From: a virus
Taxonomy: Duplodnaviria; Caudoviricetes
Virus record (IMG/VR): IMGVR_UViG_3300028805_002025
Coordinates: 32,001-96,000 of that record
Reading direction: 5' to 3' (one strand)
Length of the DNA: 64,000 nucleotides
In this document: positions 1,942 through 26,448 of the stretch, piece after piece
How positions within the stretch are numbered: the stretch's first letter is position 1
Layout: each line of letters starts with the position of its first letter
Notes under the pieces: model-generated
The model's input: the letters and a program-made list of their open reading frames with translations, nothing else
Told to the model about the DNA's origin: nothing
The model's database searches: none
Position numbers and translations under genes: made by a program

Positions 1942-3231
1942 TTAAGAATTTTTCACAACTACAAGTGTATAATCTTTCTTACCCTTCTGGAGAAGCAGGT
2001 ATTTTCCGTTGATAAGGCTGCTCATGTCAATTACTGTCTTCTCGTCATTTACCTTCTCCTTGTTAATGGAGAAACCGTTAGCCTTGATGAGCTTACGAGC
2101 CTCTGACTTAGAAGGCACTTTATCGTGCATAGTAGCCAGGTCGATTACGGTCACACCACTGGAAAGCTGTTCCTTTGGAATCTGGGCAGTAGCAACCTCT
2201 CCCTTTATGAACTTCCATCCGTTCTCGTCTACGTCTTTGATATCAATGCCACCGAACAGGAATGCGGTAGCCTGTTCAACACCATCCAAGGCATCCTTGC
2301 CGTGAATCATGTCAGTCATGTACTCAGCCAGTCTTCTCTGCAATAAACGCTTGCTTGGGTTCTCACGGTGCTTGCTGATAAGCTCGGCAATCTCGTCTAA
2401 TGGGATAAGTGTGAAGAGCTTGATGTAACGCTCTGAGTCCTCGTCAGACTGATTCAGCCAGAACTGGAAGAACTCGTATGGGCTTGTCTTCTCTGGGTCA
2501 AGCCAAATGTTACCCTTCTCTGACTTACCGAACTTCGTACCATCAGCCTTCGTCACCAACGGCCAAGTCAACATACAGGCATCATCCTTACCAAGCATCT
2601 TACGAATCAGCTCAATACCAGTAGTACCGTTTCCGAACTGGTCACTACCACCAATCTGAAGCTTACAATCGTAATTCTTATACAGCTCAACAAAGTCGTA
2701 ACCCTGGAGAAGCTGATAGGTAAACTCAGTGAATGACATACCACTACCCTCACGTTCCAGACGCTTTTTAACAGAGTCCTTTGCCATCATGTAGTTAACG
2801 GTGATACACTTACCAACCTCACGTGCGAAATCGATAAATGAGAAGTTCTTCATCCAGTTGTAGTTATTGACCAGGATAGCAGCCTTGGGGTCATCGTTAT
2901 CAAAGTGAAGCAGCTTGCTCACCTGCTTGCGGATACCCTCGATGTTGTGCTCAACGGTCTCAGCACTCAGAAGCTTACGCTCCTCTGACTTAAATGATGG
3001 GTCTCCGATAAATGCCGTAGCACCACCCAAAAGAACAATAGGCTTGTGACCGTAGGACTGGAGCAACTTAGCGGTTGTAAACGCCAGCAAATGCCCAAGG
3101 TGAAGACTGTCCGCTGTGGGGTCAGTACCTACATAGAATACGGTTGGTTTACTAAGCAACTCTTCGAGGTTGCCAGAGAGACTTGCAATCAGTCCTCTCT
3201 CTTTCAATTCTTTAAGTAATGGATTATTCAT
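1942..3231 (-). CDS. tyrS: Tyrosyl-tRNA synthetase
   Basis: DPTADSLHLGH (HIGH), QIGGSDQ, KFGKS (KMSKS), C-terminal S4-like domain. Confidence 0.97.
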   Translation of the reverse strand: MNNPLLKELKERGLIASLSGNLEELLSKPTVFYVGTDPTADSLHLGHLLAFTTAKLLQSYGHKPIVLLGGATAFIGDPSFKSEERKLLSAETVEHNIEGIRKQVSKLLHFDNDDPKAAILVNNYNWMKNFSFIDFAREVGKCITVNYMMAKDSVKKRLEREGSGMSFTEFTYQLLQGYDFVELYKNYDCKLQIGGSDQFGNGTTGIELIRKMLGKDDACMLTWPLVTKADGTKFGKSEKGNIWLDPEKTSPYEFFQFWLNQSDEDSERYIKLFTLIPLDEIAELISKHRENPSKRLLQRRLAEYMTDMIHGKDALDGVEQATAFLFGGIDIKDVDENGWKFIKGEVATAQIPKEQLSSGVTVIDLATMHDKVPSKSEARKLIKANGFSINKEKVNDEKTVIDMSSLINGKYLLLQKGKKDYTLVVVKNS

Positions 3232-21774: not shown

Positions 21775-22182
21775 TCACGTATCCTGTTCTTTTCTTGCTC
21801 GTCTTGCATTCCTCATTTCCTCCATCTTCTCCTTCAAGAGCTTCTTCTGTAGCTCCTCAGCTATCACATCACCATGACAAGGCTCTGGTTTACAGAAGCA
21901 TGCAAGCCAGATGTCCTCACCGTTCTTGTAATGCTCGTATATCTCGTCGAATACCTTGGTAAGCTCTGTATCCTTACCATAAGCTTTCTCAAAATATATC
22001 CTGTAGGCATTAATGGCTTCCTCACGTGTCTTGAATGATAGCTTCGCCAGATTACTTCTCTTGCCGTTGTGGGTGAATGGATTTCCAAGAGGATTACCAT
22101 GCTTAGACCTACCTATGTACCAGTTATTATCTTCTGAGGTGTGGTCTTCTTGGTGAAGATTGTAAACGTGTATTTGTCCCAT
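21775..22182 (-). CDS. DUF4326-like protein
   Basis: YIGR, LGNPF, LACFCKPEPCHGDVI. Confidence 0.85.
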   Translation of the reverse strand: MGQIHVYNLHQEDHTSEDNNWYIGRSKHGNPLGNPFTHNGKRSNLAKLSFKTREEAINAYRIYFEKAYGKDTELTKVFDEIYEHYKNGEDIWLACFCKPEPCHGDVIAEELQKKLLKEKMEEMRNARRARKEQDT

Positions 22183-22660
22183 TCTTCTTATCCTTTAGTA
22201 CAAACTGATTATCTTCTCCTTTTTTAAAACAACTGCAAGCTTTCTTATTGCTTTTATCCCAATCGACCCTATATTCAAGAAAGTGATGCCAACGGTCAAC
22301 GTAGTATTTGACATACACACCAGTACCCTTTTTATTCATTACTCCCATCCACCAGTGCCTCCAGTATCTTTCATCAAAATCCTCTTCGTCCTTGTATCTG
22401 TCATAGAGCATTTGCCACCTTGGGTTTGAGTTTCTTCTCTTCACAAGGTTTGGTGCTAATATGAATAACCTAGTTACAAAGCATCTAAGCTGTCTGTTAT
22501 TCCTGGACAGATACCCTTCAACAAAGTCCTTCTTGAAGAGGGGTCTTGTTTTGAAGTATCTGTTTCCTGGATTATGTGATATGATTTCCCTAAAGAACAG
22601 ATACTCACCCAAGGTACAATTCTCCCGTAGGAACTGCAAGAATAGTTGGGTGGCTGTCAT
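22127..22660 (-). CDS. Hypothetical protein
   Basis: ORF fits operon packing. Confidence 0.6.
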   Translation of the reverse strand: MTATQLFLQFLRENCTLGEYLFFREIISHNPGNRYFKTRPLFKKDFVEGYLSRNNRQLRCFVTRLFILAPNLVKRRNSNPRWQMLYDRYKDEEDFDERYWRHWWMGVMNKKGTGVYVKYYVDRWHHFLEYRVDWDKSNKKACSCFKKGEDNQFVLKDKKNGTNTRLQSSPRRPHLRR

Positions 22661-24327: not shown

Positions 24328-25194
24328 TTAGTGCCTTTTTAAATATTCTGGATTTCCGTTATTAAATTTCCATTTTATTTTTTCATTAAAAATCTCTCTT
24401 ACATAATTTCTCATTTCAACGGAATAAGTTGGTAAACTATATTTTTCACACCATTTCACAACGGCTTTATCACTAACACCATATTTTCTCCCAACGCCAG
24501 TAAAAGAACCAATTTTTCTAAAATCATTCAATAGCTGTTCTTTTGAAATTATTTTATTAGATTTTGGCTGCTTATTAACTATTTTCATTTTTTTCAATTT
24601 ACGTCCACAATAGTTATCTGTTAAAGTGTGACAATTAGGGCATAATAATTGTAAATTTTCAAGCCTATTATCAGTTCTATCACCATTAATATGATGTAGC
24701 TGTAATGGGATAGGTTTGCCATACCATTCTGATAAGCCACATTCTGGATTTTCGCACTTATGTTCTTTTATTCCTTCATTTAACAACCTTTCTCTTAATC
24801 TTGGTATAGAAATTGTTGAACCTTTAACTAGATACTCTTCTATTGAAATCTTTTTTTTAATACAACCTGGTTTATATGGTTCATATTCATTAAAATGTGA
24901 TATATCAATTTTATTTTCTTCTAAAATTTTCCTTATTTGTTTATAATATTCATTTGTTCCTTTTTTACCTAATATATGTAGTATTTGGTTAATATTGGTA
25001 CATTTTTTAGCAAGTTCGCATACCATATCTACATATTTTTGGTGCGATGATTTTTTTTCATCGTATTCATCAAGATTAATCTTATTGCAGTAGCAAGCGT
25101 TTGATTTGGTAATCAAAAGTTCTTTAGCTATTTCTCCAAAGCTTTTACCAGCTTTTCTTAATTTCTGTACTTGTACTATTATTTCTCTATCCAT
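24328..25194 (-). CDS. HNH homing endonuclease with flanking HTH-like domains
   Basis: CENPEC...LQLHHINGDRTDNRLENLQLLCPNCH; AT-rich; start set at ATG after ATATTTAT. Confidence 0.9.
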   Translation of the reverse strand: MDREIIVQVQKLRKAGKSFGEIAKELLITKSNACYCNKINLDEYDEKKSSHQKYVDMVCELAKKCTNINQILHILGKKGTNEYYKQIRKILEENKIDISHFNEYEPYKPGCIKKKISIEEYLVKGSTISIPRLRERLLNEGIKEHKCENPECGLSEWYGKPIPLQLHHINGDRTDNRLENLQLLCPNCHTLTDNYCGRKLKKMKIVNKQPKSNKIISKEQLLNDFRKIGSFTGVGRKYGVSDKAVVKWCEKYSLPTYSVEMRNYVREIFNEKIKWKFNNGNPEYLKRH

Positions 25195-25262
25195 AGTATA
25201 ATCGTTTTTATATAAATATCTAAATCCTCCAAAAAAAATACGATTATACCACATTTATTTTG

Positions 25263-25334
25263 TAGGGAACAATTGAGTTGAACAATTACCTGTCGAGTCA
25301 AAGTCGCTTGTGCAGACCGCTACACCAGTTCCCC
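25263..25334 (-). tRNA. Atypical tRNA-Gln(TTG), copy A
   Basis: Acceptor GGGGAAC/GTTCCCT, D stem GTGT/GCAC, loop CT-TTG-AC, T arm AATTG TTCAACT CAATT; only 3 Watson-Crick pairs in anticodon stem. Confidence 0.7.
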
Positions 25335-25337
25335 ATA

Positions 25338-25363
25338 TTGTGTTACCATTACACCATGTCCCA
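25338..25363 (-). pseudogene. 5' half of the split tRNA-Gln
   Basis: TGGGACA-TG-GTGTAATGGTAACAC-A; TGGGACA is exactly complementary to TGTCCCA of the 3' half. Confidence 0.75.
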
Positions 25364-25368
25364 GTATG

Positions 25369-25440
25369 TAGGGGTGGAATGAGTCGAACATTCACCTGTT
25401 GAGTCAAAGTCACTTGTGCAGACCGCTACACCACACCCCC
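25369..25440 (-). tRNA. Atypical tRNA-Gln(TTG), copy B
   Basis: Acceptor GGGGGTG/CACCCCT, same D arm, loop CT-TTG-AC, T arm GAATG TTCGACT CATTC. Confidence 0.72.
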
Positions 25441-25560
25441 AGATACGAAAATAGGGTATTCGGATTCCTGTTACAGACCGTAATACCCTGGTGTGCCTTA
25501 CGTTCAAGGCACTAAGCAATAAGTCATTTGACAATGAAGTCAAATACCAATCGACAAAAG

Positions 25561-25655
25561 TACCCCTGGAGGCTCTCGAAACCTCACTCCTACCGTTTAT
25601 CACTTCGGAACACAGATTCTCAACCGTGCGCGTCTTCCCTTTCCACCACAGGGGT
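25561..25655 (-). tRNA. Atypical tRNA-Leu(GAG)-like with 8-nt anticodon loop and long variable arm
   Basis: Acceptor ACCCCTG/CAGGGGT-A, Leu-type D arm, stem CACGG/CTGTG around TTGAGAAT, T arm GAGGT TTCGAGA GCCTC. Confidence 0.6.
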
Positions 25656-25697
25656 ATATATTGTGGGTATTACGTTCAAGTAACACCCTGTTGTTGC

Positions 25698-25958
25698 TTA
25701 AATACCATCATACATTCCTAATATTTTCTTTATTTTATCTCTTCTTTCTTTGCTCTTAGCTTCTTTATCATCAAACGTCTTAACCCATTCATTACCTTGA
25801 CTGGTAAGCTCCCAGGTCTCGCCATCAATGCTGATACATGATAGCCCACTCAACCTTCCGACACCACTCTCCCCAATTATGGCAGTAAGTTCATCAATGT
25901 CTCCACTACCATTGGTTATAATGGGATGTTGTATCATCTGTTTAAAAGTCAGCTCCAT
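25698..25958 (-). CDS. Hypothetical protein embedded in tRNA array
   Basis: Start moved to ATG just downstream of a tRNA-Leu; the longer ORF-track version overlaps tRNAs. Confidence 0.6.
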   Translation of the reverse strand: MELTFKQMIQHPIITNGSGDIDELTAIIGESGVGRLSGLSCISIDGETWELTSQGNEWVKTFDDKEAKSKERRDKIKKILGMYDGI

Positions 25959-25962
25959 AATG

Positions 25963-26045
25963 TACCTCCAGTGAGACTCGAACTCACACGTTTCATAACA
26001 GGGGCCTCTCGAACCCCCCTGTCTACCCGATTCCAGCATAGAGGT
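25963..26045 (-). tRNA. tRNA-Leu(GAG) with C33
   Basis: Acceptor ACCTCTA/TGGAGGT-A, stem GGGGT/GCCCC, loop TC-GAG-AG, T arm GTGAG TTCGAGT CTCAC. Confidence 0.75.
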
Positions 26046-26056
26046 ATGTAAATATG

Positions 26057-26144
26057 TACCCTCGGTGGGACTCGAACCCACACACTACTGTTATTTCGCA
26101 CCAGATTCTTAGTCTGGCATGTCTACCAATTCCATCACAAGGGC
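26057..26144 (-). tRNA. tRNA-Leu(AAG)
   Basis: Acceptor GCCCTTG/CGAGGGT-A, stem CCAGA/TCTGG, loop CT-AAG-AA, long variable arm, canonical T arm. Confidence 0.85.
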
Positions 26145-26150
26145 ATGATG

Positions 26151-26273
26151 TATCACCTGCTGTGTGAGCCAACGCCCGTACCCGTTGACACTCCGACCCT
26201 GCTCACATCACACATACAGACTGTACTCAAAAGAAGTGCAACATTGGACTTACCTTCTCGGTCTTACAGGTGA
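26151..26273 (-). ncRNA. Unassigned structured RNA within the tRNA array
   Basis: Closing stem TCACCTGT/GCAGGTGA, internal stems GAC/GTC, GCACT/AGTAC, GTGAGC/GCTCAC, CAACG/CGTTG; ends in TAC like flanking tRNAs. Confidence 0.45.
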
Positions 26274-26276
26274 ATG

Positions 26277-26358
26277 TATCCCTGGTGGGGGTCGAACCCA
26301 CATGTCCTCTCGAACATACGGTCTGAACGTACTGCGTCTACCATTGCGCCACAGAGAT
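26277..26358 (-). tRNA. tRNA-Leu(CAG)
   Basis: Acceptor ATCTCTG/CAGGGAT-A, stem GTACG/CGTAT, loop TT-CAG-AC, T arm GTGGG TTCGACC CCCAC. Confidence 0.85.
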
Positions 26359-26364
26359 ATGTTG

Positions 26365-26448
26365 TAGCTCTAGAGGGACTCGAACCCTCACGCCATCGCT
26401 GACACTTGATTTTGAGTCAAGCCTGTCTACCAATTCCAGCATAAAGCC
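26365..26448 (-). tRNA. tRNA-Leu(CAA)
   Basis: Acceptor GGCTTTA/TAGAGCT-A, stem CTTGA/TCAAG, loop CT-CAA-AA, canonical T arm. Confidence 0.9.

What the first reader, a model, noticed from the sequence alone, without database searches (positions are those of the whole stretch)
25561..26144. Non-canonical Leu anticodon arms: A34, C33 and an 8-nt loop
Seen: tRNA-Leu(AAG) with wobble A34; tRNA-Leu(GAG) with C33 instead of U33; and a 95-nt Leu-like tRNA whose best stem (CACGG/CTGTG) encloses 8 nt. Established: A34 is rare in bacteria outside tRNA-Arg, U33 is near-invariant, 8-nt loops promote +1 frameshifting, and LeuRS largely ignores the anticodon. Inference: five Leu isoacceptors diversified at the loop while remaining chargeable; one could be a quadruplet decoder or decoy.
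Basis: partly seen in the sequence, partly recalled or inferred. Interest (0 to 1): 0.6.

Follow-up and report, generated by a model that had tools for sequence, protein, structure and literature searches.

The report
Odd leucine tRNAs in rumen phage
A giant phage from the sheep and cattle gut carries three leucine tRNA genes with irregular decoding loops, and one of them, with an eight-base loop in place of seven, is kept intact in distantly related phages, so it is a working RNA and not a sequencing error or a dead gene.

Summary
All three features are present at the stated coordinates, on the minus strand of a 241,681-bp uncultured jumbo phage with 43 tRNA genes. They are Leu(AAG) with A34, Leu(GAG) with loop UCGAGAG (C33), and a 96-nt Leu-type gene with the 8-nt loop UUGAGAAU. 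Contigs from other studies carry the same letters, so these are not assembly errors.

- **A34:** a conserved family trait. Eight relatives carry Leu(AAG), with strong covariation. CUU is the phage's commonest Leu codon (39%).
- **8-nt-loop gene:** two further distinct homologues exist in related phages. All 24 base pairs are kept, two through compensatory changes. The loop is always 8 nt, and only position 34 varies (G or A, both CUY readers).
- **Leu(GAG)-C33:** found only in this lineage, inserted together with an 86-codon gene. Evidence that it functions is weaker.
- **Quadruplet reading:** three tests gave no support. There is no +1-split gene, and in-frame CUC-A is common.

Most likely these are in-frame CUY decoders. 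The loop changes may be tolerated, or selected to evade host tRNA nucleases; the phage also encodes RtcB and Tpt1. Charging, modification and decoding remain untested. I rate it a new variant of a known kind, of moderate interest. Earlier notes of this scan reported C33 as a conserved trait of tRNA arrays in other genomes.

The parts
25560..25655 (-). 96-nt class-II Leu-type tRNA gene. It has A73, no encoded CCA, an 8-nt anticodon loop UUGAGAAU closed by CACGG/CUGUG, a 24-nt variable arm, and U53-G61 in the T stem.
   Evidence: ARAGORN. Rfam 25.8 bits, below the cut-off of 29. The MFE fold is the cloverleaf. Homologues in G015/L078, L085 and L086 keep the 8-nt loop and show 2 compensatory pair changes. 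Only G015 scores above 62 bits with model R1 among 48 records.
25698..25958 (-). 86-codon gene of unknown function lying between the two GAG genes. Its ATG sits 5 nt after the Leu(GAG) gene, whose 3' acceptor strand UGGAGGU supplies a GGAGG ribosome-binding motif.
   Evidence: Sequence. 9 of the 13 distinct substitutions seen in X4/X15 contigs fall on third codon positions (my count). Homologues P0121 (97%) and P0122 (53%, same N-terminus). No Pfam or PHROG family.
25962..26045 (-). tRNA-Leu(GAG) with anticodon loop UCGAGAG (C33 = window 26011), a U31-G39 closing pair, an extra base in the D loop and a 12-13-nt variable region.
   Evidence: ARAGORN. Rfam 36.6 bits. 0 differences in the X4 contig. 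No homologue in 48 related records, IMG/VR or INPHARED.
26056..26144 (-). tRNA-Leu(AAG), loop CUAAGAA (A34, A37).
   Evidence: ARAGORN. Rfam 53.3 bits. Leu(AAG) genes found in 8 relatives. In the 10-gene alignment, 12 of 21 pairs have changes on both sides and 0 of 500 shuffles reach the observed values.
26276..26358 (-). tRNA-Leu(CAG), loop UUCAGAC. A canonical-looking member of the cluster, absent from the relatives examined.
   Evidence: ARAGORN. Rfam 45.1 bits. No Leu(CAG) in the tRNA regions fetched from G001, G002, G003 and G005.
26364..26448 (-). tRNA-Leu(CAA), canonical. It is 85/85 identical to the copy in relative G002.
   Evidence: ARAGORN. Rfam 54 bits. BLAST.
25262..25440 (-). Two tRNA-Gln(UUG) genes that close the cluster. 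The order Leu(CAA)-Leu(AAG)-(8-nt gene)-Gln-Gln is shared with relatives.
   Evidence: ARAGORN. Synteny in L078, L085, L086, L069 and L090.

Best explanation
The three genes are real tRNA-Leu genes of a rumen jumbo phage that supplies much of its own decoding set. They serve the CUY codons; CUU is the phage's commonest leucine codon. Leu(AAG) is an ordinary, strongly selected member of the family's repertoire, and its A34 is fixed by selection. Whether A34 is read as A or as inosine depends on the unknown host's TadA, since no phage deaminase was found.

The 96-nt gene is a conserved class-II Leu-type tRNA whose anticodon loop carries one extra base 3' of the anticodon (UU-RAG-AAU). Most likely LeuRS charges it through A73 and the Leu-type body, and it reads CUY triplets in frame, as the 8-nt-loop mitochondrial tRNA-Thr1 of yeast reads CUN. 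Leu(GAG)-C33 is a lineage-specific extra CUC/CUU reader that arrived in an insertion with a small gene.

Inferred and not shown: the loop irregularities (C33, the extra base, A37 in place of G37) persist because they make these tRNAs poor substrates for host tRNA-directed nucleases or toxins, which cut or recognise the anticodon loop. That would fit the phage's own RNA-repair genes (RtcB, Tpt1).

Shown: presence, conservation, covariation and the match to codon use. Inferred: charging, in-frame decoding and nuclease evasion.
For: - The sequence is confirmed in contigs of three further runs from other studies.
- Leu codon use: CTT 39%, CTC 9%. Relative G002 lacks Leu(GAG), Leu(CAG) and the 8-nt gene but has Leu(UAA). 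It uses CTT 31%, CTC 6%, CTG 4% and TTA 26%, against 39, 9, 11 and 15% here. The tRNA set therefore tracks codon use.
- Leu(AAG) was found in 6 of the 7 near-complete relatives examined, and also in L085 and L086. The AAG anticodon is invariant across three different anticodon-arm lineages. In the alignment, 98.1% of cells are paired, 12 of 21 pairs change on both sides, and 0 of 500 shuffles reach that.
- This phage's copy is a mosaic. Its acceptor and T arms match the AAG lineage, while its anticodon and variable arms match G005's Leu(UAG) 'AUUAGAA' lineage, yet the anticodon is AAG.
- The 8-nt gene has three distinct sequences (this phage, L085, G015, which is identical to L086). 72 of 72 cells are paired, with 2 compensatory pairs and 2 one-sided changes. 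None of the 13 variable columns breaks a pair. The loop length is 8 in all, and the only loop change is G34 to A34.
- Precedent: an 8-nt loop that decodes CUN triplets in frame, in yeast mitochondria (PMC3113583, passages read).
- Non-canonical loops recur in the family. Five of 43 genes here have them, and relatives carry non-U33 and 6- or 8-nt loops.
- RtcB and Tpt1/KptA are encoded.
- Literature on phage tRNAs with anticodon-loop changes that escape anticodon nucleases: PMC10264068 (abstract start and one passage). RtcB acting together with array tRNAs under translational stress: PMC8421152 (passage).
Against: - No host, no host nuclease and no host tRNA set is known, so nuclease evasion is pure inference.
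- No raw reads or tRNA-seq were available. The RNA-library contig may derive from DNA, so expression, processing, CCA addition, charging and modification are all unshown.
- The 8-nt gene scores below Rfam's tRNA cut-off (25.8 against 29 bits). It has U53-G61 where G53-C61 is near-universal (recalled), which may hint at a non-decoding role.
- Only three distinct sequences support its covariation, and 69 of 500 shuffles reach the observed values, so the statistics are weak.
- Only 1 of the 8 IMG/VR relatives at least 90% complete has the gene, so it is dispensable for the family.
- Leu(GAG)-C33 has no homologue anywhere searched. Its only sign of constraint is 0 changes in 84 + 28 nt of two variant contigs, where I estimate about 2.8 would be expected. 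That is not significant.
- The codon-use comparison rests on two genomes.
Confidence: 0.45

Rival explanations
1. The 96-nt RNA, and perhaps Leu(GAG)-C33, is a tRNA look-alike that does not decode. It would act as a decoy or sponge that occupies a host tRNA-directed nuclease, toxin or modification enzyme, or as a processing or regulatory element of the tRNA-mRNA transcript.
For: - Below Rfam's tRNA cut-off, with an 8-nt loop and U53-G61.
- The anticodon stem and loop are letter-for-letter invariant apart from position 34, while other stems vary.
- It always sits directly beside a canonical Leu(AAG) that could do the decoding.
- The Leu(GAG) 3' end doubles as the ribosome-binding site of the next gene.
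- Earlier notes of this scan describe conserved phage tRNA mimics elsewhere (unchecked).
Against: - The acceptor stem, A73, D loop and T loop (UUCGAGA) are all kept as in a chargeable Leu tRNA.
- The single loop change swaps one CUY anticodon for another (GAG to AAG), as expected for a decoder.
- Strong conservation of the anticodon arm is also usual for decoding tRNAs (recalled).
Confidence: 0.2
2. The 8-nt-loop tRNA is a natural +1 frameshifting or quadruplet-decoding tRNA. It would read CUCA (CUUA in G015) or UCUC (UCUU in G015), and be used for programmed frameshifting or to corrupt host translation.
For: - The 8-nt loop with its extra base on the 3' side of the anticodon resembles SufB2/SufA6-type suppressors (recalled; listings).
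- All four CUN readers of the cluster have A37. They therefore lack the G36-G37 context for m1G37, which guards the frame (loops; role of m1G37 recalled).
- The loop is conserved.
Against: - The 24 overlapping +1 ORF pairs each start with their own ATG, GTG or TTG at the overlap. The one with CUC-A (window 22127-22660 / 21775-22182) has a complete DUF4326 domain downstream.
- tBLASTn of 551 ORFs from G002, 198 of them with hits, against this genome gave 0 adjacent different-frame pairs of alignments consistent with a frameshift. The single candidate was a repeated motif.
- In-frame CUC-A occurs 214 of 415 times and UCU-C 92 of 903 times, so neither is avoided. Efficient quadruplet reading would wreck the phage's own proteins, the same argument as in PMC3113583.
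Confidence: 0.07
3. The irregular genes are decaying or neutral duplicates (pseudo-tRNAs) in an over-large, redundant tRNA set. This applies mainly to Leu(GAG)-C33.
For: - Leu(GAG)-C33 has no homologue outside this lineage.
- The set holds many duplicates and odd bodies.
- The fold z-scores are modest, -1.3 to -1.8.
Against: - For the 96-nt gene, conservation over phages whose sheath proteins are about 73-75% identical, with no change that breaks a pair, rules out decay.
- Leu(GAG)-C33 keeps every stem, G18G19, G53-C61 and a canonical T loop, and scores 36.6 bits.
- It is unchanged in a variant strain whose flanks differ.
- CUC and CUG use is higher in this phage than in G002, which lacks these genes.
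Confidence: 0.15
4. The oddities are assembly or sequencing errors.
For: None found.
Against: The same letters occur in contigs of runs from three other studies. The 8-nt loop is also present in IMG/VR and two other metagenome records.
Confidence: 0.01

Closest known systems
Phage tRNAs with anticodon-loop changes that escape host anticodon nucleases (van den Berg et al. 2023, eLife, PMC10264068; T5-type tRNA sets)
   Same: A large phage-encoded tRNA set with deviations concentrated in anticodon loops, in a phage that also carries RNA-repair genes.
   Different: No host, no nuclease and no cleavage data here. The deviations include C33 or G33 and 6- and 8-nt loops, which go beyond the base substitutions I saw discussed. 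I read only the start of the abstract and one passage, and the words U33, position 33 and loop size do not occur in the main text.
Yeast mitochondrial tRNA-Thr1(UAG) with the 8-nt anticodon loop UUUUAGGU (Su et al. 2011, PMC3113583)
   Same: A naturally conserved 8-nt anticodon loop on a tRNA for the CUN box. In-frame triplet reading is inferred from abundant in-frame CUNA sites.
   Different: There the extra base lies 5' of the anticodon, on a class-I His-derived body that is charged with Thr. Here it lies 3' of the anticodon, on a class-II Leu-type body with A73, and in a phage.
+1 frameshift suppressor tRNAs SufB2/SufA6 (tRNA-Pro, extra G at 37.5), SufJ and SufD
   Same: An eight-membered anticodon loop, with the extra base 3' of the anticodon as in SufB2.
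   Different: Those are laboratory mutants that rescue frameshift mutations. Here there are no frameshifted targets and no avoidance of the matching quadruplets.
Bacterial tRNA-Leu(AAG)/(IAG) of Lactobacillales and Streptococcus (PMC13249217, PMC11472039; listings only) and engineered ANN tRNAs in E. coli (bioRxiv 10.64898/2026.05.15.725136; abstract)
   Same: [quoted passage not shown]
   Different: This one is phage-encoded, and no TadA-like deaminase was found in 239 of the 241 predicted ORFs scanned. The same anticodon arm as in the relatives' Leu(AAG) occurs in Verrucomicrobiota MAG tRNA-Leu(AAG) genes: 3 of 5 pattern hits.
Long tRNA gene arrays of bacteria (trn operon of Anabaena, Santamaria-Gomez et al. 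2021, PMC8421152)
   Same: A large accessory tRNA set with non-canonical members, linked functionally to RtcB under translational stress (passage read).
   Different: That array is cellular and plasmid-borne. I found no mention of U33 or C33 in its main text. The C33 link comes from earlier notes of this scan.

Membership tests
Canonical elongator tRNA (Rfam RF00005) | Scores at or above the gathering score (29 bits) | tested here: inconclusive
   Leu(AAG) 53.3 bits and Leu(GAG)-C33 36.6 bits meet it. The 96-nt gene at 25.8 bits does not.
Canonical elongator tRNA (Rfam RF00005) | Seven-membered anticodon loop with U33 | tested here: not met
   Met by Leu(AAG) (CUAAGAA). Not met by Leu(GAG) (UCGAGAG, C33) or by the 96-nt gene (UUGAGAAU, 8 nt).
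Canonical elongator tRNA (Rfam RF00005) | Cloverleaf maintained by selection (covariation) | tested here: met
   AAG/UAG family: 12 of 21 pairs change on both sides and 0 of 500 shuffles reach that. 96-nt gene: 24 of 24 pairs kept, 2 compensatory, but only 3 sequences and 69 of 500 shuffles. Leu(GAG)-C33 could not be tested because it has no homologues.
Bacterial-type tRNA-Leu (LeuRS substrate, class II) | Discriminator A73, long variable region, Leu-type D loop with A14 and G18G19 (identity set recalled from E. coli work) | tested here: met
   All five cluster genes end ...A73-C, have variable regions of 12-24 nt and have GGAAnnGGnAGAC-type D arms.
Bacterial-type tRNA-Leu (LeuRS substrate, class II) | Aminoacylation with leucine | not testable with these tools
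   No LeuRS is encoded by the phage among the ORFs scanned. Charging would be by the unknown host's enzyme.
+1 frameshift suppressor / quadruplet-decoding tRNA | Eight-membered anticodon loop | tested here: met
   UUGAGAAU here, UUGAGAAU in L085 and UUAAGAAU in G015/L086.
+1 frameshift suppressor / quadruplet-decoding tRNA | Genes that need a +1 shift at the matching four-base site | tested here: not met
   None among the 24 overlapping +1 ORF pairs. 0 split alignments for the 198 shared ORFs of G002. CUC-A and UCU-C are not avoided.
Nuclease-evading phage tRNA (sensu van den Berg 2023) | Phage tRNA whose anticodon loop differs from the host's cognate tRNA at the nuclease's recognition or cut site, and which resists cleavage | not testable with these tools
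   The host and its tRNAs are unknown. Only context is available: RtcB and Tpt1 in the phage, and recurrent loop irregularities in the family.
A34/I34 wobble tRNA (TadA substrate) | A34 in the gene, and a deaminase able to act on it | tested here: inconclusive
   A34 is present and conserved. No deaminase family was found at E<=1e-5 in the 223 ORFs, or at E<=0.001 in the 16 ORFs. The two giant ORFs were not scanned. The host's TadA is unknown.

The most novel reading that the evidence does not exclude
A clade of rumen jumbo phages maintains a natural leucine tRNA with an expanded, eight-base anticodon loop as a working part of translation. It would either be a nuclease-proof CUY decoder, or a tRNA that shifts the reading frame at a low, useful rate on host or phage messages. 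That would be the first such tRNA shown to be kept by selection in a virus of bacteria.
Probability: 0.3. Interest if true: 0.8.

Novelty: new variant of a known kind. Interest (0 to 1): 0.5.

Why it matters
Eight-base anticodon loops are otherwise known from laboratory frameshift suppressors, engineered quadruplet decoders and one yeast mitochondrial tRNA. My searches turned up no paper describing a conserved one in a phage. They cover open-access papers and preprints only.

If this tRNA is charged and used, it offers a naturally evolved scaffold for studying how ribosomes keep frame with an expanded loop. It would also extend the idea that phages reshape anticodon loops to survive tRNA-targeting immunity.

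The A34 result adds a viral case, and by-catch in Verrucomicrobiota MAGs, to the open question of why unmodified ANN anticodons are so rare. The family is large: more than 4,800 sheath homologues, with genomes of 230-430 kb. It is rich in irregular tRNAs, so it is a good place to test these ideas.

Tried and rejected
- **Close relatives by single proteins.** The deoxyribosyltransferase-like protein and ORF86 found nothing in IMG/VR. ORF86 found nothing in JGI metagenomes.
- **Exact anticodon-arm pattern in IMG/VR.** It gave one chance hit, L001, with no tRNA and no similarity.
- **Megablast of 24 kb against INPHARED.** No match. BLASTn of the cluster found only generic tRNA parts.
- **D-arm pattern of Leu(GAG)-C33 in IMG/VR.** 0 hits.
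- **Unbiased pattern for the 96-nt gene in IMG/VR.** It found only G015 again.
- **Promoter and terminator scan.** Nothing above the shuffled expectation.
- **Origin of Leu(GAG)-C33.** Global alignments gave only about 68-69% identity to every Leu gene, so the source is unresolved.
- **Joints that skip 25466/7 to 26055 (X1, X15).** I first read them as variants lacking the module of 96-nt gene, ORF86 and Leu(GAG). The sides are short (29-40 nt), what lies between is unknown and likeness was set to 85%, so I draw nothing from them.
- **Cover in the RNA run X3.** The run has no contig over 25904-26035 (Leu(GAG)). That says nothing about expression.
- **Alternative registers giving a 7-nt loop or U33.** Rejected by inspection, because they create G-G or C-U mismatches. 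If the U31-G39 pair does not form, Leu(GAG) could also be read as a 9-nt loop UUCGAGAGG holding U33 plus an inserted C.
- **Host inference.** The genome-contig hits are Verrucomicrobiota MAGs. This is too thin to name a host.
- **L085's record.** It could not be searched with model R1 because it is not held.
Full report
**What is there.** The window is bases 32001-96000 of a single 241,681-bp contig with 39% G+C. It is an uncultured myovirus-like jumbo phage.
- Its gene content includes a T4-type sheath, gp19 and gp25, an NrdD, family B DNA polymerase, two sigma factors, DnaK/DnaJ, ClpP, IF3, TyrRS and NAD-salvage genes.
- Runs that hold the sequence come from sheep, bovine and other gut metagenomes of 12 studies.
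- ARAGORN finds 43 tRNA genes and a tmRNA. Most lie in an array at genome 2-24 kb. A separate cluster lies at window 25262-26448 on the minus strand.
- The cluster order is Leu(CAA), Leu(CAG), Leu(AAG), Leu(GAG), an 86-codon ORF, a 96-nt Leu-type gene, Gln(UUG), Gln(UUG).

- Leu(AAG), 26056-26144, has loop CUAAGAA.
- Leu(GAG), 25962-26045, has stem GGGGU/GCCCC and loop UCGAGAG, so C33.
- The 96-nt gene, 25560-25655, has stem CACGG/CUGUG around UUGAGAAU.
- Rfam's tRNA model gives 53.3, 36.6 and 25.8 bits against a cut-off of 29.
- None of the cluster genes encodes CCA. All have A73.

Contigs of four public runs were laid on the cluster. X1 may be the source sample. X3 is an RNA library of another study, and X4 and X15 come from two further studies.
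- The odd positions are identical wherever they are covered.
- In the variant strains X4 and X15, the only change inside the 96-nt gene is at the unpaired position 26. Leu(GAG) has none over the 84 nt (X4) and 28 nt (X15) covered.
- The spacers and the ORF carry the remaining differences: 8 of X4's 11, and 14 of the 15 listed for the X15 contig, which has 20 in all.
- In a second X15 contig (26095-26393), all 5 differences lie in the 131-nt spacer and none in the 168 nt of tRNA sequence.

These are contigs, not raw reads, so they show presence but not expression.

**Relatives.** The phage's sheath protein has more than 4,800 homologues at E<=1e-20, many on contigs of 230-430 kb. An alignment of 15 of them recovered 48 IMG/VR loci. 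Five long records hold 47, 46, 17, 2 and 34 matches to the Rfam tRNA model. I fetched their tRNA regions and ran ARAGORN on them.

**A34.**
- Leu(AAG) is present in G001, G002, G005, G015, G018 and G032. That is 6 of the 7 near-complete relatives examined; G003 showed none in the regions fetched, and G042 was not examined. It is also present in metagenome contigs L085 and L086.
- An alignment of eight AAG genes and two related UAG genes keeps 98.1% of cells paired. 12 of 21 pairs change on both sides, and no shuffle of 500 reaches this.
- The AAG anticodon is invariant across three different anticodon-arm lineages.
- This phage's copy is a mosaic. Its acceptor and T arms are those of the AAG lineage. 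Its anticodon and variable arms are almost those of G005's Leu(UAG), loop AUUAGAA, but with C32 and A34. A34 is therefore selected, not accidental.
- CUU is the commonest Leu codon, at 39% of 4,100 Leu codons in ORFs of 150 aa or more.
- A-starting anticodons are rare but functional, and least costly in four-fold boxes (abstract). Leu(AAG)/I34 is described in Lactobacillales and S. pyogenes (listings).
- The relatives' anticodon arm also occurs in tRNA-Leu(AAG) genes of three Verrucomicrobiota MAGs.
- No deaminase family was found in the 239 phage ORFs scanned.

**The 8-nt-loop gene.**
- BLAST of the 615-nt module against the 48 records hit one, G015, at 87% identity over exactly the 96-nt gene.
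- A pattern that avoids the anticodon arm found two more in metagenome contigs: L085, and L086, which is identical to G015.
- The three distinct sequences are all 96 nt, and all have an 8-nt loop: UUGAGAAU, UUGAGAAU and UUAAGAAU.
- Of the 13 variable columns, four form two compensatory pairs. These are acceptor 7-66, G-C to A-U, and a variable-arm pair, U-A to G-C. Two are one-sided and still pair. The rest lie in loops, and none breaks a pair.
- With three sequences the shuffle control is weak (69 of 500), but the slid controls drop to 32-61% paired.
- A covariance model built from them finds only G015 above 62 bits among the 48 records. The gene therefore belongs to a subclade.
- In that subclade the order is Leu(CAA), Leu(AAG), 8-nt gene, Gln, Gln. 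This phage has in addition Leu(CAG), and Leu(GAG)-C33 with the ORF.

**Leu(GAG)-C33.**
- No homologue was found in the 48 records, IMG/VR, INPHARED or by global alignment.
- It keeps every stem, G18G19, G53-C61 and a canonical T loop.
- Its 3' strand UGGAGGU lies 5 nt before the ATG of the 86-codon ORF.
- The ORF is itself real. 9 of 13 substitutions in the variants fall on third codon positions (my count), and it has a 53%-identical homologue.

**Wider pattern.**
- Five of the genome's 43 tRNA genes have irregular loops. Besides the two above they are Val(UAC) CCUACAA, Gly(UCC) CGUCCAG and a 6-nt loop AUUUUA.
- Relatives show the same kinds: an initiator-like Met with G33 in two phages, Gly(UCC) with C33, the 6-nt-loop gene in three, and two further 8-nt loops.
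- The phage encodes RtcB and Tpt1/KptA.

**Tests of the quadruplet idea.**
1. Among adjacent ORFs of 70 aa or more, the 24 that overlap by at least 8 nt in the +1 frame all begin with their own start codon at the overlap.
2. In-frame CUC is followed by A in 214 of 415 cases (overall A is 36.5%; TCC-A is likewise 54.9%). UCU is followed by C in 92 of 903 cases (overall C is 13%). Neither is avoided.
3. I rebuilt relative G002, which lacks the gene, and ran its 551 ORFs of 100 aa or more against this genome. 198 had hits. None gave adjacent alignments in different frames consistent with a frameshift, and the one candidate was a repeated motif.

The yeast mitochondrial tRNA-Thr1 shows that an 8-nt loop can read CUN triplets in frame.

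**Codon use and repertoire.** G002 (34.5% G+C) has Leu(UAA) but no Leu(CAG), Leu(GAG) or 8-nt gene. It uses CTT 31%, CTC 6%, CTG 4% and TTA 26%. This phage uses 39, 9, 11 and 15% and lacks Leu(UAA). The direction fits decoding use, though it rests on only two genomes.

**Conclusion.**
- The genes are real.
- Leu(AAG) and the 8-nt-loop gene are under selection.
- The most economical reading is in-frame CUY decoding by LeuRS-charged tRNAs.
- Evasion of host tRNA-directed nucleases is the most plausible, but untested, reason for the irregular loops (PMC10264068; PMC8421152).
- A decoy role is not excluded. Quadruplet decoding is unlikely. Decay remains possible only for Leu(GAG)-C33.

Supplements of the papers cited were not read.

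Noticed in passing
L003:5522-5592 (genome 21522-21592, minus strand); relatives L062:19527-19598, L068:9606-9677, L071:2373-2442: A tRNA-like gene with a 6-nt anticodon loop AUUUUA lies between the His and Pro genes. It is conserved in this phage and three relatives, and its anticodon stem changes compensatorily (CCUGG/CCAGG, CUUGG/CCAAG, CUUGG/CUAAG).
   Followed up: partly
L002:7691-7779, L002:9408-9492, L002:10769-10851, L002:15639-15727, L003:6616-6703: Several tRNAs with class-I identities carry long variable arms and Ser/Tyr-type D arms: Trp (89 nt), Thr(UGU) (85 nt), Lys(CUU) (83 nt), Arg(ACG) (89 nt) and Gln(CUG) (88 nt). Most sit beside a normal-length copy of the same or a synonymous anticodon. 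Relatives have the same kinds (for example Trp 87-88 nt, Gln 87-89 nt).
   Followed up: no
window 1942-3231 (-): The phage encodes a full TyrRS, yet ARAGORN finds no tRNA-Tyr, tRNA-Met or tRNA-Cys in its 241 kb. Relatives G001, G002 and G005 carry Tyr(GUA) and Met genes, and G002 and G005 also Cys.
   Followed up: no
L003:13045-14409 (-) and L009:4168-4713 (+): RNA-repair genes are present: RtcB ligase (E 4.5e-56) and the RNA 2'-phosphotransferase Tpt1/KptA (E 5e-42).
   Followed up: partly
L061:14172-14263, L067:5506-5597, L071:14569-14646: Relatives G001, G002 and G005 carry an amber-suppressor-type tRNA (anticodon CUA) on a class-II-like body. This phage has none. 22 of the 198 shared G002 ORFs still end in TAG.
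   Followed up: no
L061:10442-10515 and L067:5603-5677: Two relatives carry an initiator-like tRNA-Met (C1/A72-type first position, G-C-rich anticodon stem) with G33 (loops CGCAUAA and UGCAUAA).
   Followed up: no
L002:5722-5800 and L003:2338-2412: Two more non-U33 genes occur in this genome: Val(UAC) with loop CCUACAA, and one of the two Gly(UCC) genes with loop CGUCCAG. G001's Gly(UCC) has CCUCCAA.
   Followed up: partly
window 25962-26358 and 25560-25655: All four CUN-reading Leu genes of the cluster have A37 after G36. The relatives' Leu(AAG) genes and this phage's Leu(UAG) have G37, the usual site of m1G37 (role recalled).
   Followed up: no
window 25958-25970: The 3' acceptor strand of Leu(GAG), UGGAGGU, doubles as the ribosome-binding site of the next gene. 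3' maturation of the tRNA and translation of that gene from the same transcript should therefore exclude each other.
   Followed up: no
G001:C1:240556-240678, G001:C1:264718-264838, G002:C1:273739-273862, G003:C1:500-620: Matches to the Rfam tRNA model that span 121-124 nt suggest tRNA genes with insertions of about 50 nt (introns or inserted elements) in relatives.
   Followed up: no
L006:12133-15396 (-): The anaerobic ribonucleotide reductase NrdD is interrupted by an intein with Hint and LAGLIDADG homing-endonuclease domains. HNH, GIY-YIG and DUF723/DUF4379 endonuclease-like genes are scattered through the genome, including one directly downstream of the Leu/Gln cluster (window 24328-25254).
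   Followed up: no
L002:2353-2426: A 74-nt class-I-shaped gene carries the Leu anticodon CAA and a mismatch in the acceptor stem. Its identity is unclear.
   Followed up: no
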